Of a DNA stretch of 64,000 nucleotides, positions 931 through 16,526 are shown piece by piece; position 1 is the stretch's first letter; each line of letters starts with the position of its first letter. The notes under the pieces are model-generated. The model was not told the origin of the DNA and ran no database searches. It was given only the letters and a program-made list of their open reading frames with translations. Made by a program: the position numbers and the translations under genes. This DNA comes from a virus, in IMG/VR virus record IMGVR_UViG_3300028635_000005; one strand, 5' to 3'.

Positions 931-1134
931 ATGGAAAACTTAAAAAAGCATCCAATAGATGCTAGCATTAAAAAAGAAAAATGTGTTATTTGTTTTAATG
1001 AAACGCCTTATATAAAAAACACTCCTATACATGAAAGACGTTATTACGTAGAAGGAGCAGGACAATTATGTGAATGTTGTTATGATCAGATATATACTTG
1101 GAAAAATTACACCTATGCATGGAAAAAGCATTAG
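931..1134 (+). CDS. Small zinc-binding protein
   Basis: CVIC...CECC cysteine pairs; tight packing after thyA. Confidence 0.6.
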   Translation: MENLKKHPIDASIKKEKCVICFNETPYIKNTPIHERRYYVEGAGQLCECCYDQIYTWKNYTYAWKKH

Positions 1135-1292
1135 AGATATTGTTAATAATTGCACTTATTGTTTTAGGTGTTGTTATGATCATGTACATTAGAAAAATTA
1201 ATAAAGAAATAAAAGAACTGGATAGAAAAAAACGAAAAAGAGATAAAGAACTTTTAAAATTAACAAGTAAAAGAAAAAATAAAACGTATTAG
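1119..1292 (+). CDS. Small single-pass membrane protein
   Basis: ATG at 1119 (MEKALEILLIIALIVLGVVMIMY) followed by a basic tail; preferred over the TTG start at 1098. Confidence 0.6.
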   Translation: MEKALEILLIIALIVLGVVMIMYIRKINKEIKELDRKKRKRDKELLKLTSKRKNKTY

Positions 1293-13000: not shown

Positions 13001-13630
13001 TTAGGTAGCTTTAGTTTTTCTCCCTTTTACCCATCCCTTTAAAAGATATTCATCTAATAAAGTTTTATCTATTCTTTTTGTATAGTTTAAATCTTTATTG
13101 TATATCCAAATTGTATTATAATTCGGATTTTTTTCCTTAGTTTTATTAAACATGCCATTTTTATTTCCTGAAACTAAATAGCCATTATTACGCATACCAT
13201 TATTAAGACTAATCTTTCTTTTAGTAATGTCTGACATGCGCATACCCTTATTTTTTGATATTCCTTTTTCGCTATTACTAATTTTTTTTCGAGTAATTTC
13301 AGAATGATGTTTATTTTTCATAGGAGAAATCCTGCCCTTTGCTGAGCCGCCTTTGCCTCCTATTTTTAAATTATAACATTTGGGGTCGTTTAAAACATTA
13401 TCATTTACAATTTTTGCTTCATAATCCAATGCTTCTTCAAATGTATTAAAAAATTTTAAAATTTCTCTTTTAAAATTTTCTTTTCCATATTTTTTAATTG
13501 CATTTTTAATGTATTTGCCCGAACCCATATACATGTCGTTTAAGTTCGAAGTTTTATGTACCCCATAATAAAAGTTTTCTGTAATTAAATTTACTACTCG
13601 ATAGAAATAATTATAATAATGCTTAGACAT
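13001..13630 (-). CDS. Free-standing GIY-YIG homing endonuclease (Seg-like, NUMOD3-type tail)
   Basis: YFYRVVNLITENFYYGVH..YMGSG..AIKKYGKENFKREIL..EALDYE; HSEITRKKIS repeats. Confidence 0.9.
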   Translation of the reverse strand: MSKHYYNYFYRVVNLITENFYYGVHKTSNLNDMYMGSGKYIKNAIKKYGKENFKREILKFFNTFEEALDYEAKIVNDNVLNDPKCYNLKIGGKGGSAKGRISPMKNKHHSEITRKKISNSEKGISKNKGMRMSDITKRKISLNNGMRNNGYLVSGNKNGMFNKTKEKNPNYNTIWIYNKDLNYTKRIDKTLLDEYLLKGWVKGRKTKAT

Positions 13631-13650
13631 ACATAAATTATGTTTAATTT

Positions 13651-13681
13651 AAAAGGGTGGAATTAATTCCACCCTTTTTTT
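13651..13681 (-). terminator. Intrinsic terminator of the tmRNA transcript
   Basis: AAAAGGGTGGAAT-TA-ATTCCACCCTTTT near-perfect hairpin. Confidence 0.85.
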
Positions 13682-13802
13682 CATTTGTCGTATACAAACT
13701 TCTTAAGCTGCCATACGATACTCTTTAAACTGTTCGCCGTTTAATTGCGTCTTGAGATGTTCGCTATTACCCTTAGTATGCAATCAAAGCCAAGTCATCC
13801 CC
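13682..13802 (-). ncRNA. ssrA: tmRNA coding piece (5' acceptor strand plus tag ORF) of a permuted gene
   Basis: Starts GGGGATGACTTGGCTTTGA; tag reading frame 13738-13703 GGC GAA CAG TTT AAA GAG TAT CGT ATG GCA GCT TAA = GEQFKEYRMAA*; the 3' end is approximate. Confidence 0.88.
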
Positions 13803-13870
13803 ATTTATGATTGATTAGCTGGCTCAATCATCAAAGCCTTTATAAGTTCCTTTCCAACGGAAAAGAATCG

Positions 13871-13940
13871 TGGAGATGGCGGGAATCGAACCCGCGTCTT
13901 ACATACCTACTCTCTAACTATCCTTTCGGAGTGTCTCAAT
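13871..13940 (-). ncRNA. ssrA: tmRNA acceptor piece (T-arm plus 3' acceptor strand) of a permuted gene
   Basis: GTATGTAA-GAC-GCGGGTTCGATTCCCGC-CATCTCCA; pairs with GGGGATG including G3.U70; CCA not encoded; the 5' end is approximate. Confidence 0.88.
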
Positions 13941-13944
13941 ATCT

Positions 13945-13978
13945 TAAATATAATACCAAAAATCAATTTTGATACTTT
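13945..13978 (-). promoter_or_regulatory. Early (host-sigma-type) promoter of the tmRNA gene
   Basis: AAAGTATCAAAA-N4-TTTTTGGTATTATATTTA just upstream of the acceptor piece. Confidence 0.6.
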
Positions 13979-14762: not shown

Positions 14763-16526
14763 TTAAATTCCTAAGTCGCTATCTGCATCAGGCATTTCTT
14801 CCATTCCTGGTTCTTCAGGAGCTCCTCCTCCAAGATCCATGTCTGGGCCTCCTCCAAAATCAGAACCTCCTCCAAAGCCACCACCACTTTCGCCTTCATC
14901 GCTTTTATTTAATCTTTTAACTGCATCTGCAATACGAGAAAGTTGTTCTCTTCTTTCCTTTTTGTATTTTGCATTAAGTTTAAGATCTTCTTCTGTAAAG
15001 TTCATATATTTCTCAACTAAGAATTTTGGATCAAAGTACATTCCATCCATTGTAATTTTTCCTTCATCATCTACTTCAGGCTGTCTAATGTTCATAAGCT
15101 TTTCAACTATATCTGCGCCTTTTGAAATTATATCTCTTTTCTTAGCTTCAGTAAATAAGTTTTCTTCAATAAATTGAATGCCTATTGCGCCTTTCAAGGC
15201 TTTATCTTTTGCAAATTCGGGATGTTTCAAACAAAATTGAATCCACATCGGTTTGTGTAATATTTCCTGTAAAATTGTACGAATTCTATTAATAAAATAA
15301 TTGAAACGTATTTCCTCTCTTGCAATACTATCTCCTCCGGAATTCCATGCTGATGTTGCATCTTCACCACTTATAGAAGAAAACCTATCCTTTGGAATTT
15401 TCGTTTCAATGATAAACCGTTTCCAGAAATACCCCAACGCATTTGTATCTGAAAGATCATATCCCGCTGGGGCAAAAGAATCTATTTCAGTTTGGCTTCC
15501 TTCTTTAGAAGGAATAATATATTGTTTTGCAAATGAAAAGTTAGGTTGTCCATTTATAGTTATTTCACCGCTATCATAATCGATGTTAACATCTTCTTTA
15601 TATATTCCTCTAAGTTCTGATAATCTTGTACGAGCTTTAACTTCAGATTGTGTACCTATAGGAACAACTATTTTCATTCTGTGTTGTGAATTAATAATGT
15701 TCCATATAATACGGGAATTTTCCATTGTTCTTAGCATGTTAAAAGATCTAACCAATCTTTCTACGTAAGATAATCTTGAAATAAAATTATTTCGTGCCCA
15801 TGAGATATAAATTACATTACCATCAACTAATTCTCTTTGTCTTTTTGCGTCTCCTCTGAATTGAACCCAAACCCGATATTCATTTTCTTCTTCATCTATT
15901 CGTAATTCAGGTTCTAATGTAACGGGATCTAATTCTTTAAATCCTAAAATGTTTTTTGCATCTTCATCTCCTTCTCCGTCATAAATTATTTCAAAGGCAA
16001 GAAATCCGTCAATAAGAAATTTTTTACAATAGTGCCAAGCAGCATGTCCTTGATTAAATCCAAATGCATAATAAACTCTTTTAAATGATTCATTTAAATC
16101 ATCTACAATTTCTTTAGCCTTTTCAGCTTTTAAAACAGATTTAAGCTTTTGCGTATTTGGATATGCAAAAAAGTTAGCATCATCTTGGATAATAGTTTCA
16201 TCGGCAATAACATCTAAAACGTATTCTATTTCACCATTCATTGCAAATCTTCTTAAGAAGTCTCTTCTTGTCGGATATTCTTTGTCATAAAAAGCAATAA
16301 ATTCTGTTTGTCCAATATCTCTGCCTGCGGCCATTTGAGGTTGACCATATAGGCTATACATTGAATCTTCTTGAATTTCAGATATTCCGATAGACTTGGA
16401 TTGTTTAATGAGATTTTGATCCCATTTCATTCCTAGCACAGAAAGATAACGAATATTTCTTTGTAAATTATCTAAAAATCCTCGGGAGCCTCTATCTAAA
16501 TTGCGTAATGAAAATATTCCAGCCAC
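14763..16526 (-). CDS. gp20: Portal vertex protein (T4 gp20-like)
   Basis: FLRRFAMNGEIEYVLDVIADE, KKFLIDGFLAF, LSYVERLVRSFNMLRTMENSRIIW, REEIRFNYFINRIR; GTG start. Confidence 0.92.
   Translation of the reverse strand: MAGIFSLRNLDRGSRGFLDNLQRNIRYLSVLGMKWDQNLIKQSKSIGISEIQEDSMYSLYGQPQMAAGRDIGQTEFIAFYDKEYPTRRDFLRRFAMNGEIEYVLDVIADETIIQDDANFFAYPNTQKLKSVLKAEKAKEIVDDLNESFKRVYYAFGFNQGHAAWHYCKKFLIDGFLAFEIIYDGEGDEDAKNILGFKELDPVTLEPELRIDEEENEYRVWVQFRGDAKRQRELVDGNVIYISWARNNFISRLSYVERLVRSFNMLRTMENSRIIWNIINSQHRMKIVVPIGTQSEVKARTRLSELRGIYKEDVNIDYDSGEITINGQPNFSFAKQYIIPSKEGSQTEIDSFAPAGYDLSDTNALGYFWKRFIIETKIPKDRFSSISGEDATSAWNSGGDSIAREEIRFNYFINRIRTILQEILHKPMWIQFCLKHPEFAKDKALKGAIGIQFIEENLFTEAKKRDIISKGADIVEKLMNIRQPEVDDEGKITMDGMYFDPKFLVEKYMNFTEEDLKLNAKYKKERREQLSRIADAVKRLNKSDEGESGGGFGGGSDFGGGPDMDLGGGAPEEPGMEEMPDADSDLGI

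What the first reader, a model, noticed from the sequence alone, without database searches (positions are those of the whole stretch)
13651..13978. Circularly permuted, two-piece tmRNA gene in a phage
Seen (minus strand), in order: promoter (13978-13945); acceptor piece with T-arm GCGGGTTCGATTCCCGC and CATCTCCA (ends 13871); a 68-nt intervening segment (13870-13803); then GGGGATG at 13802, tag ORF and terminator. GGGGAUG pairs 7/7 with CAUCUCC, including the alanine identity pair G3.U70 and discriminator A73. TTGCATAC pairs with GTATGTAA (helix 2). So the 3' end of the tRNA-like domain is encoded upstream of its 5' end. Known: permuted ssrA occurs in alphaproteobacteria, some cyanobacteria and a betaproteobacterial lineage, whereas Bacteroidota tmRNAs are, to my knowledge, one-piece. 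Inference: this is an independent permutation in a phage lineage, needing host RNase P, 3' trimming and CCA addition. I cannot say whether current tmRNA catalogues already contain it.
Basis: partly seen in the sequence, partly recalled or inferred. Interest (0 to 1): 0.85.

Follow-up and report, generated by a model that had tools for sequence, protein, structure and literature searches.

The report
Split ribosome-rescue RNA in huge phage
A huge phage, probably of Bacteroidota hosts, carries a real back-to-front (two-piece) tmRNA gene. Its lineage seems to have rearranged and shrunk the gene on its own, separately from the three bacterial groups known for two-piece tmRNA.

Summary
Rfam's permuted-tmRNA model hits window 13922-13703 (-) at 61.2 bits (cut-off 47). 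ARAGORN calls the gene once its threshold is lowered to 95% (tag GEQFKEYRMAA).

About 30 independent viral contigs carry the same gene order, so this is not an assembly artefact. Across 17 distinct sequences, 20 of 32 base pairs show compensatory changes, and G3.U70 never varies. The gene lies about 800 nt downstream of the portal gene.

The phage belongs to a roughly 400-kb clade distantly related to the Prevotella Lak megaphages. Every member checked in the window's own clade has only the two-piece form. Lak-A1, Lak-B1, a Lak-like contig and LR756500 have only a one-piece tmRNA, with the same unusual tag ending (...RMAA).

The resume context and GE... tag are those of Bacteroidota tmRNAs. 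None of 151 sampled Bacteroidota genomes has a permuted gene. The lineage-specific beta model scores 37 bits against a cut-off of 84.

The RNA has only 60-76 nt between G1 and the resume codon. That leaves no room for pseudoknot PK1.

Permuted tmRNAs, including phage ones, are already known, so this is a new variant of a known kind. This scan had already noted the same family on other DNA.

The parts
13947..13975 (-). Conserved upstream motif GTATCAAAAT-N10-TATTATATT, a candidate promoter
   Evidence: It is unique in the window, with 0 expected by chance. The same motif lies upstream of the tmRNA in L042, L062 and L063. The sigma-70 scan finds nothing on this strand, so promoter function is inferred.
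13871..13940 (-). Acceptor piece: 3' half of the tRNA-like domain plus 5' extension. The exact 5' end is unknown.
   Evidence: Rfam alignment; conserved block in A1 and A2.
13934..13939 (-). Helix H4, 5' strand UUGAGA. It pairs with 13757-13752.
   Evidence: RNAalifold and pair counts show 94/102 cells canonical and 3 of 6 pairs with double changes, for example UUGGGA/UUCCAA and UUAAG/CUUAA. The helix is also in the single-sequence MFE fold.
13921..13930 (-). Hairpin H5 with a GNRA tetraloop (UCC-GAAA-GGA)
   Evidence: Relatives have GCUC-GAAA-GAGC, GCUC-GCAA-GAGC, GCCA-GCGA-UGGC and UCUC-GAAA-GAGA. The MFE fold agrees.
13914..13918 (-). Helix H3, 5' strand GUUAG. It pairs with 13767-13763.
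   Evidence: 80/85 cells canonical and 4 of 5 pairs with double changes. The helix is also predicted on A2.
13899..13907 (-). Helix P2a, acceptor-piece strand GGUAUGUAA
   Evidence: 139/153 cells canonical and 8 of 9 pairs with double changes. Tool RNAalifold agrees.
13879..13895 (-). T-arm GCGGG-UUCGAUU-CCCGC
   Evidence: 85/85 cells canonical and 4 of 5 pairs with double changes.
13871..13878 (-). Acceptor-stem 3' strand CAUCUCC plus discriminator A (13871). CCA is not encoded.
   Evidence: U70 (opposite G3) is invariant in 17/17 sequences.
13803..13870 (-). Intervening segment, 68 nt, removed on maturation. It forms two hairpins and has no ORF.
   Evidence: Its length ranges from 15 to 206 nt in relatives and its sequence is not conserved. 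The hairpins appear in the MFE fold.
13651..13802 (-). Coding piece: 5' half of the tRNA-like domain, tag ORF, stop-codon hairpin and terminator
   Evidence: Rfam; alignments A1 and A2.
13796..13802 (-). Acceptor-stem 5' strand GGGGAUG (G1-G7); inferred RNase P cleavage site 5' of 13802
   Evidence: It pairs 7/7 with 13878-13872. A5-U68 changes to G5-C68 or C5-G68 in relatives.
13775..13783 (-). Helix P2a, coding-piece strand UUGCAUACU
13763..13767 (-). Helix H3, 3' strand AUAGC
13752..13757 (-). Helix H4, 3' strand UCUCAA
13703..13738 (-). Tag reading frame GGC...TAA = GEQFKEYRMAA*, preceded by the resume context AUUAAAC
   Evidence: ARAGORN at -ps95. The frame and stop are kept in 27 distinct relatives, with tags of 9-12 aa and Ala-Ala codons that vary only at third positions.
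13683..13699 (-). Hairpin GUUUGU-AUACG-ACAAAU after the stop codon
   Evidence: MFE folds. L009, L024 and L029 have the same type with changes.
13651..13674 (-). Terminator hairpin GGGUGGAAUU/AAUUCCACCC plus UUUU; it defines the 3' end of the coding piece
   Evidence: The hairpin is found by the scan (reported on the + strand because it is palindromic). All relatives have a GC-rich hairpin plus U-run here.

Best explanation
This is a working, circularly permuted ssrA gene of a huge phage (roughly 400 kb).

Inferred maturation:
- One transcript probably starts a few bases upstream of 13940 and ends at the terminator at 13651.
- Host RNase P cuts 5' of G13802.
- The 68-nt intervening segment is trimmed back to discriminator A13871, and CCA is added.
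- The products are an acceptor RNA of about 70 nt and a coding RNA of about 150 nt.

The two RNAs stay together through four intermolecular helices: the acceptor stem P1, P2a, H3 and H4. The complex would be charged with alanine (G3.U70, A73). With host SmpB and EF-Tu it would enter stalled ribosomes, which then resume on GGC and add GEQFKEYRMAA.

Shown here: the gene order, the helices (by covariation), the conserved tag frame, and the gene's distribution among phages. Inferred: every processing and functional step.

Origin (my estimate: about 70% likely). The gene derives from a one-piece, Bacteroidota-type tmRNA already carried by the ancestor of this Lak-related group of phages. It was permuted within the window's clade, and PK1 and the downstream pseudoknots were lost. 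Its likely use is extra ribosome-rescue capacity during infection. The phage-specific tag ending (...[YFM][RK]MAA, against host ...YALAA) may alter the fate of tagged proteins; this last point is speculative.
For: Identity:
- RF04321 scores 61.2 bits against a cut-off of 47.
- ARAGORN at -ps95 calls a permuted tmRNA with tag GEQFKEYRMAA.

Family:
- Portal-related contigs (64-84% identity) carry the gene in the same position. RF04321 scores 56-78 bits, and ARAGORN calls permuted tmRNAs with tags GE...MAA.
- A scan for the tag context found about 30 viral contigs with the permuted gene.

Structure:
- 514/543 pair cells are canonical and 20/32 pairs have double changes. Slid controls give 212-260 canonical cells and 4-9 such pairs.
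- Tool RNAalifold finds 28 of 45 pairs compensatory.
- G3.U70 is invariant.
- The single-sequence fold has z = -2.89.

Phage and host:
- The window encodes portal, helicases and DNA polymerase.
- The portal is 41-43% identical to those of Prevotella Lak phages.
- It is 80% identical to that of a complete 405,016-nt genome with terminal repeats.
- Shine-Dalgarno motifs are not used: 4/60 ORFs against 5.7 expected at random.

Origin:
- Lak-A1, Lak-B1, L041 and LR756500 have only RF00023 one-piece genes and no RF04321 hit. G281 and G001 have only the permuted gene.
- Tags share the ...RMAA ending across both forms: DDEIDFRMAA, GEYNEYRMAA and GNNAEMRMAA against GEQFKEYRMAA and GETVNEMRMAA.
- Across 185,579 species' genomes, the context TAAAC|GGC GAA...GCN GCN TAA picks almost only Bacteroidota tmRNAs: about 85 of 95 real tmRNAs.
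- 0 of 151 sampled Bacteroidota genomes have RF04321 at or above the cut-off.
- Alpha genes score 89-163 bits, with T-loop GGCGGUA, encoded CCA and ANDN tags.
- The beta model gives the window 37.4 bits against a cut-off of 84, while true beta-type genes score 122-125.
- The G1-to-resume distance is 60-76 nt, against 84-87 in alpha and beta genes and 89-98 in one-piece genes.

Host factors:
- No SmpB was found in the complete relative.
Against: - There are no expression, processing, charging or tagging data.
- PK1, usually the best-kept tmRNA pseudoknot, has no room here, so function cannot be assumed from E. coli rules.
- T-loops in relatives depart from the canon (AUCGUAC, GGCAGAA, AGGCAUA, CUCGCCA).
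- In the window the terminator is followed by only four U.
- The origin argument rests on short motifs and on the tag, which could converge under host selection.
- Distances over the tRNA-like domain alone do not separate the candidate sources well.
- The U-for-C signature before GAC could reflect AT pressure.
- No cyanobacterial permuted gene was compared directly.
- In Lak phages the tmRNA lies upstream of the portal gene, not downstream, and no other flanking gene is detectably shared.
Confidence: 0.8

Rival explanations
1. The gene was captured from one of the three known two-piece lineages (alpha-, beta-proteobacterial or cyanobacterial, or their phages). Its tag and resume context later adapted to a Bacteroidota host, so there was no independent permutation.
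For: - Beta_tmRNA is the best-scoring older model.
- The window's T-arm and acceptor strand are identical to those of beta-type genes L002-L004, although those loci were selected with that very string.
- Some relatives (L015, L062) have an alpha-like T-loop, GGCAGAA or GGCGGAA.
- Distances over the tRNA-like domain do not discriminate.
- Permuted tmRNAs do move among marine phages (PMC9004378).
Against: - The window scores 37.4 bits against the beta cut-off of 84, and no relative reaches any lineage cut-off.
- The alpha and beta genes sampled all encode CCA, start their tags with A (ANDN or ANDE), and have 84-87 nt from G1 to the resume codon.
- The one-piece tmRNAs of portal-related phages share the phage-type tag ending and, in L041, the GAUU...UAAGAC variant of P2a.
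- One-piece and two-piece forms are mutually exclusive among related phages.
Confidence: 0.12
2. The RNA is made but does not rescue ribosomes. It would act as a decoy that ties up host SmpB, AlaRS or ribosomes, as proposed for the tag-less tmRNA-like RNA of mycobacteriophage DS6A. Alternatively it is a decaying remnant.
For: - All pseudoknots are lost, and T-loops in relatives are non-canonical.
- The phage has no SmpB.
- The DS6A precedent is cited in PMC11915505.
Against: - The tag frame, resume context, Ala-Ala-stop ending and stop-codon hairpin are kept in 27 distinct sequences. The Ala-Ala codons vary only at third positions.
- G3.U70 and A73 are invariant.
- Four intermolecular helices are maintained by compensatory change. 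A decoy would not need the coding part.
Confidence: 0.07
3. The permuted order is an assembly or rearrangement artefact of a normal one-piece gene.
For: None was found.
Against: - The same order occurs on about 30 contigs from many metagenomes, including a complete 405-kb genome.
- Intervening segments range from 15 to 206 nt.
- No T-arm follows the tag.
- A terminator follows the tag in every copy.
Confidence: 0.01

Closest known systems
Two-piece (circularly permuted) tmRNA of Alphaproteobacteria, a betaproteobacterial lineage and marine cyanobacteria (Keiler et al. 2000; Sharkady and Williams 2004, as cited in PMC9004378; Rfam RF01849, RF01850, RF01851 and merged model RF04321, PMC11915505)
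   Same: - The gene order is acceptor piece, then intervening segment, then coding piece.
- The acceptor stem and P2 form between two RNAs.
- G3.U70 is present.
- The tag ORF ends in Ala-Ala.
- The merged model RF04321 scores above its cut-off.
   Different: - The window is below the cut-off of the lineage-specific models (beta 37 against 84).
- CCA is not encoded.
- The tag starts with Gly-Glu in the Bacteroidota resume context, not with Ala-Asn-Asp.
- Only 60-76 nt separate G1 from the resume codon, against 84-87, so there is no PK1.
- An extra GNRA hairpin and the intermolecular helix H4 are present.
- The gene is carried by huge phages, and 0 of 151 sampled Bacteroidota genomes have a permuted form.
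Phage-encoded two-piece tmRNAs of marine T4-like phages (OM43 phage Melnitz, pelagimyophages, cyanophages; PMC9004378)
   Same: Both are permuted ssrA genes carried by a lytic-type phage that has no SmpB of its own. Both are presumed to support translation during infection.
   Different: Those genes are alpha-type, and phylogenetically alphaproteobacterial according to that paper. Some carry a glutamine riboswitch. The present family has a different phage group, host phylum, tag type and architecture.
One-piece tmRNAs of Prevotella Lak megaphages and related huge phages (Lak-A1 MK250016 223026-223421; Lak-B1 MK250020 414201-414610; LR756500 94509-94921). tmRNAs in huge phages are noted in PMC7162821.
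   Same: - The phages are related (portal 38-45% identical).
- Each genome has one tmRNA.
- The tags end in ...RMAA.
- In the Lak phages and L041 the gene lies next to the portal gene.
- CCA is not encoded.
   Different: Those are standard one-piece genes of 350-410 nt with the pseudoknot region (RF00023, 47-96 bits). The window's gene is permuted and lacks that region.
Bacteroidota chromosomal tmRNA (one-piece, tag GENNYALAA and variants)
   Same: - The resume context is (A/U)UAAAC|GGC GAA.
- The tag starts with Gly-Glu.
- UUUGAC replaces UUCGAC in the 5' tRNA-like half.
- CCA is usually not encoded.
   Different: The chromosomal genes are one-piece, about 390 nt, with four pseudoknots, and their tags end in ...YALAA.

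Membership tests
tmRNA, permuted form (Rfam RF04321) | Covariance-model score at or above the curated cut-off | tested here: met
   61.2 bits against 47, with model positions 1-213 all matched. Relatives score 48-78 bits.
tmRNA, permuted form (Rfam RF04321) | The 3' half of the tRNA-like domain (T-arm, acceptor 3' strand) is encoded upstream of the 5' half | tested here: met
   The T-arm and acceptor strand lie at 13895-13872, upstream of GGGGAUG at 13802-13796 on the minus strand. About 30 contigs have the same order.
tmRNA (any form) | A 7-bp acceptor stem with the G3.U70 alanine determinant and discriminator A | tested here: met
   The strands pair 7/7. G3.U70 is invariant in 17/17 distinct sequences, and position 5-68 covaries as A-U, G-C and C-G.
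tmRNA (any form) | Helix P2 joining the tRNA-like domain to the rest of the RNA | tested here: met
   P2a has 9 pairs, 8 of them with double changes. H3 and H4 continue the helix.
tmRNA (any form) | A tag reading frame with a resume codon in a conserved upstream context, ending in Ala-Ala-stop, with the stop codon in a hairpin | tested here: met
   The tag GEQFKEYRMAA* is at 13738-13703. The frame is kept in 27 distinct relatives, and the stop-codon hairpin is seen in A2.
tmRNA (any form) | Pseudoknot PK1 between P2 and the tag. It is typical of tag-encoding tmRNAs but is not part of the RF04321 model. | tested here: not met
   All 64 nt from G1 to the resume codon are accounted for by P1, the D-loop analogue, P2a, H3, H4 and a 13-nt single strand. 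The distance is 60-76 nt, against 84-98 elsewhere.
tmRNA (any form) | Processing into mature ends, alanylation, SmpB binding and trans-translation | not testable with these tools
   No expression or biochemical data are available. No SmpB gene is present in the complete relative, so host SmpB would be needed.
beta_tmRNA (RF01850), alpha_tmRNA (RF01849), cyano_tmRNA (RF01851) | Score at or above the lineage model's cut-off | tested here: not met
   Beta scores 37.4 bits against 84. The alpha and cyano models scored lower and were dropped by clan competition. No relative reaches these cut-offs, whereas true beta-type loci score 122-125.

The most novel reading that the evidence does not exclude
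A further, independent origin of two-piece tmRNA took place inside a lineage of huge phages of Bacteroidota, starting from the phages' own one-piece gene. It produced the most reduced tag-encoding tmRNA known to me: about 70 plus 150 nt, no pseudoknot, held together by four intermolecular helices. Its phage-specific tag (...RMAA) is shared with the one-piece relatives. If this RNA works, PK1 and the pseudoknot ring are dispensable in nature. The family would then be a natural minimal system for studying trans-translation.
Probability: 0.55. Interest if true: 0.65.

Novelty: new variant of a known kind. Interest (0 to 1): 0.55.

Why it matters
Circular permutation of ssrA has been treated as a rare event tied to three bacterial clades and mitochondria. 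Here the event can be bracketed within a virus lineage, because close relatives still carry the one-piece form. That makes it possible to study how a permuted structural RNA gene arises.

The product is a naturally minimal tmRNA with no pseudoknot and covariation-supported helices. It therefore tests which parts of tmRNA are really required.

There is also a practical point. ARAGORN at default settings misses the window's copy and about ten relatives, so huge-phage annotations under-report these genes. Rfam's RF04321 model finds most of them.

The phage-type tag ending (...RMAA against host ...YALAA) raises a testable question: do phages redirect the fate of tagged proteins?

Tried and rejected
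- Megablast of 6 kb around the gene against 50,697 phage records found nothing. A blastn of the gene found only the generic T-arm of actinophage tmRNAs.
- My first strict DNA pattern mainly returned true beta-type genes that share the T-arm by construction. They cannot be used as evidence of kinship.
- Mean distances over the 60-nt tRNA-like modules are 0.39-0.49 to every group, and nearest neighbours are mixed. I therefore give no tree and put no weight on these distances.
- The 'U before GAC' signature occurs in 50/53 of the GE-tag Bacteroidota tmRNAs (those the tag pattern retrieved), 17/19 of the phage family and 0/19 alpha genes. It is suggestive but could reflect AT pressure. It also fails in the 20 other sampled Bacteroidota tmRNAs (those with non-GE, mostly A-start, tags; 0/20).
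- I first took the genome behind L094, labelled Limnohabitans, for a proteobacterium. Its phylum sample proved identical to that of Flavobacterium croceum, so that search was in fact a Bacteroidota sample.
- A search of 81 cyanobacterial genomes returned only one-piece tmRNAs as weak partial hits. No cyanobacterial permuted gene was compared.
- The sigma-70 promoter scan was negative on the gene's strand.
- No gene beyond the portal is detectably shared with the Lak loci, so synteny with Lak is weak evidence.
- One alphaproteobacterial genome (G277, locus L237) is unpublished. I used none of its sequence. The 40/41 tally includes it; without it the tally is 39/40.

Full report
**What is there.** On the minus strand the window holds, in order:
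- a motif unique in the window (13975-13947);
- a 70-nt block ending in a T-arm (13895-13879), the acceptor 3' strand CAUCUCC (13878-13872) and discriminator A (13871);
- a 68-nt segment (13870-13803);
- GGGGAUG (13802-13796), followed by 64 nt to a GGC resume codon;
- the frame GEQFKEYRMAA-stop (13738-13703);
- a small hairpin and a terminator hairpin (13674-13651).

Rfam's permuted-tmRNA model RF04321 matches 13922-13703 over its full length at 61.2 bits, against a cut-off of 47. ARAGORN finds nothing at default settings. At 95% of its thresholds it calls a permuted tmRNA with this tag. The precursor folds better than shuffles (z = -2.89). The single-sequence fold already shows the acceptor stem across the intervening segment, the T-arm, a GNRA hairpin and a long-range helix, UUGAGA/UCUCAA. 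Only the 'promoter' is unverified.

**It is a family, not an accident.** The portal protein (14763-16526, -) retrieved nine IMG/VR loci at 64-70% identity. In seven of them the same kind of gene lies downstream of the portal. RF04321 scores 56-78 bits, and ARAGORN reports tags GEQFNEMKMAA, GENVYEMKMAA, GEQFNEYRIAA and GEKQTQFAMAA. A scan of viral contigs for the tag context (TAAAC GGC GAA ... GCN GCN TAA) gave 52 loci. By my parse, about 30 distinct contigs carry the permuted gene, in 27 distinct sequence versions. About ten of these are missed by ARAGORN, as the window's copy is. L042 has the identical tag.

The intervening segment ranges from 15 to 206 nt and is not conserved. The two flanking pieces are conserved.

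**Structure.** I aligned the two pieces of 18 members (17 distinct rows) and ran RNAalifold. It recovers five helices:
- the acceptor stem P1 (7 bp);
- the T-arm (5 bp);
- P2a (9 bp);
- H3 (5 bp);
- H4 (6 bp).

Of 543 pair cells, 514 are canonical, and 20 of 32 pairs show changes on both sides. Sliding the partner by 1-3 columns gives 212-260 canonical cells and 4-9 such pairs. G3.U70 is invariant. The 5-68 pair is A-U, G-C or C-G.

The session's RNAalifold tool, run on whole precursors (A2), finds the same helices. It also finds a hairpin holding the stop codon and the terminator. There, 28 of 45 pairs are compensatory.

A hairpin with a GNRA-type loop sits between H4 and H3 and covaries: GCUC/GAGC, GCCA/UGGC, UCUC/GAGA.

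P1, P2a, H3 and H4 all form between the two mature RNAs. All 64 nt from G1 to the resume codon are used by these elements and a short single strand, so there is no room for pseudoknot PK1. This distance is 60-76 nt in the family, 84-87 nt in the alpha and beta permuted genes I sampled, and 89-98 nt in one-piece genes. Nothing but a hairpin and a terminator follows the tag. The RNA therefore has no pseudoknot at all.

**The phage and its likely host.** The window encodes portal, helicases, a DnaB-like helicase, a UvsX-like recombinase, an SbcC-like protein and DNA polymerase. GC content is about 30%.
- Its portal is 80% identical to that of a complete 405,016-nt genome with terminal repeats (G281). 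That genome has 38 tRNA genes, one permuted tmRNA, no one-piece tmRNA and no SmpB.
- The portal is 38-45% identical to those of the Prevotella Lak megaphages, of LR756500 and of a Lak-like contig with in-frame TAG.
- Shine-Dalgarno cores occur upstream of only 4 of 60 ORFs, against 5.7 expected at random. This fits Bacteroidota-type translation initiation.
- A Bacteroidota host is thus likely but not shown.

**Where the gene came from.**

First, the resume context and GE tag. About 95 are genuine one-piece tmRNAs, and about 85 of those come from Bacteroidota, with tags GENNYALAA, GEDNYALAA and GETSYAFAA. None is permuted.

Second, Bacteroidota chromosomes. None of 151 sampled genomes has an RF04321 match at the cut-off. 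The published tmRNA database counts 24,380 standard against 48 permuted instances in 29,415 Bacteroidota assemblies (PMC11915505, Table S2).

Third, the known permuted lineages look different.
- 40 of 41 alphaproteobacterial genomes score 89-163 bits. The 19 distinct alpha genes parsed have T-loop GGCGGUA or GGCAGUA, an encoded CCA and ANDN tags.
- True beta-type loci score 122-125 bits on the beta model, where the window scores 37.

Fourth, and most telling, is the pattern among related phages.
- Lak-A1, Lak-B1, L041 and LR756500 each have a single one-piece tmRNA (RF00023 at 54, 47, 64 and 96 bits) and no permuted one.
- The two genomes of the window's clade searched whole (G281, G001) have only the permuted one.
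- The one-piece genes carry tags DDEIDFRMAA, DDEIEFRMAA, GEYNEYRMAA and GNNAEMRMAA. The ending ...[YFM]RMAA is shared with the two-piece genes (GEQFKEYRMAA, GETVNEMRMAA, GENSYEYRMAA) and is not seen in the host tags sampled.
- L041 also shares the GAUU...UAAGAC variant of P2a.
- In the Lak phages and L041 the gene abuts the portal gene, though on the other side.

Taken together, I read this as a one-piece, Bacteroidota-type gene held by the common ancestor of these phages. It was then permuted and stripped in the window's clade. I put about 70% on that reading.

The argument has weaknesses:
- The motifs are short.
- The tag could converge.
- Distances over the tRNA-like domain do not discriminate.
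- I had no cyanobacterial permuted gene to compare.

Some relatives have an alpha-like T-loop (GGCAGAA, GGCGGAA). Canonical and odd loops are mixed within the family, so I take this as convergence. It is also the best single argument for the rival.

**How it most likely works.** A free 3' end on the acceptor strand is needed for charging, so the transcript must be cut. This much follows from the gene order. The rest is inferred from what is established for tRNA and two-piece tmRNA maturation:
- RNase P cuts 5' of G1.
- The 3' trailer is removed to A73 and CCA is added. Bacteroidota tmRNA genes also mostly lack an encoded CCA (48 of 53), so the host handles such precursors routinely. One relative (G001) even encodes a PolyA_pol-family nucleotidyltransferase, but none is present in the window.
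- The coding piece ends at the terminator.
- The annealed pair would be alanylated, bind host SmpB, and add the 11-residue tag.

The purifying pattern on the tag argues for real tagging rather than a decoy. The frame and stop codon are always kept, and the two Ala codons vary only at third positions.

**What is known.** Two-piece tmRNA is textbook for three bacterial clades. Permuted tmRNAs in phages are published: Melnitz and relatives, where 53 of 133 unique phage tmRNAs were two-piece (PMC9004378). Huge phages are known to carry tmRNAs (PMC7162821), and Rfam 15 detects this gene. None of the papers I could search mentions a Bacteroidota-type, pseudoknot-free permuted lineage in Lak-related phages. 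That is absence from one library, not proof.

This scan had already flagged the same family on other DNA: e1-5755216, followed up, and e1-5916645, e1-5916652 and e1-5813004, which are first-reader notes.

**Verdict.** This is a real, conserved two-piece tmRNA gene and a new variant of a known kind. Interest is moderate.

Noticed in passing
window 13001-13630 (-) and about 13010-13800; L042 10280-10906: The ORF just downstream of the tmRNA looks like a free-standing GIY-YIG/NUMOD3 homing endonuclease (weak Pfam hits). A block of about 800 nt covers this ORF and the tmRNA coding piece. It is 99-100% identical to contig L042, while the flanks are 62-92% identical, and the break falls inside the tmRNA gene. 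This looks like a recent homing or co-conversion tract, so the two halves of the tmRNA gene have different recent histories. The T-loop also differs: UUCGAUU here, AUCGUAC in L042.
   Followed up: partly
L247 3232-3627 (Lak-A1, MK250016 223026-223421); L249 3200-3609 (Lak-B1); L251 212-622 (LR756500): The Prevotella Lak megaphages carry a very AT-rich one-piece tmRNA directly upstream of the portal gene. It barely reaches the Rfam cut-off (54 and 47.3 bits) and ARAGORN misses it. Its apparent tags are DDEIDFRMAA and DDEIEFRMAA, which would make the resume codon GAC (Asp). LR756500's tag is GNNAEMRMAA.
   Followed up: partly
L015 (and L045), L062, L039, L044, L042: T-arms of their permuted tmRNAs: T-loops within this one phage family range from canonical UUCGAAU to GGCAGAA and GGCGGAA (like the alphaproteobacterial two-piece T-loop GGCRGUA), AGGCAUA, CUCGCCA and AUCGUAC. 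This suggests either relaxed constraint or convergence linked to the two-piece state.
   Followed up: no
tags across L018, L033, L041, L052, Lak, LR756500 and the permuted family: The phage tmRNA tags seen here nearly all end in a basic residue plus Met-Ala-Ala (...RMAA or ...KMAA). The Bacteroidota chromosomal tags sampled mostly end in ...YALAA. The meaning for protease recognition is unknown.
   Followed up: no
L250 (G001:C1:157331-157720): A 260-kb relative of the window's phage encodes a 400-aa PolyA_pol-family protein resembling a CCA-adding enzyme (94 bits). This is notable because the tmRNA lacks an encoded CCA. The complete 405-kb relative and the window have no such gene.
   Followed up: partly
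window, all minus-strand ORFs: Shine-Dalgarno cores are not enriched upstream of start codons: 4 of 60 ORFs against 5.7 expected at random. Nearly all long ORFs lie on the minus strand.
   Followed up: partly
L001 (IMGVR_UViG_3300004241_000039), 1025-1205 (-): This is another compact, AT-rich permuted tmRNA with a 46-nt intervening segment and an apparent tag ending ...NDNLEIKVAA. It has a different resume context and is cut off at the end of the stored locus. It is not part of the GE-tag family.
   Followed up: no
L094 (JASGCW010000051, MAG labelled Limnohabitans), L075 (MAG labelled Bifidobacterium breve), L182 (MAG labelled Legionellales): These contigs carry Flavobacteriia-type tmRNAs (GENNYALAA, GEGNYALAA, GENKYALAA). 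The genome behind L094 samples as Bacteroidota in the genome tool. The bins are likely mislabelled or contaminated.
   Followed up: partly
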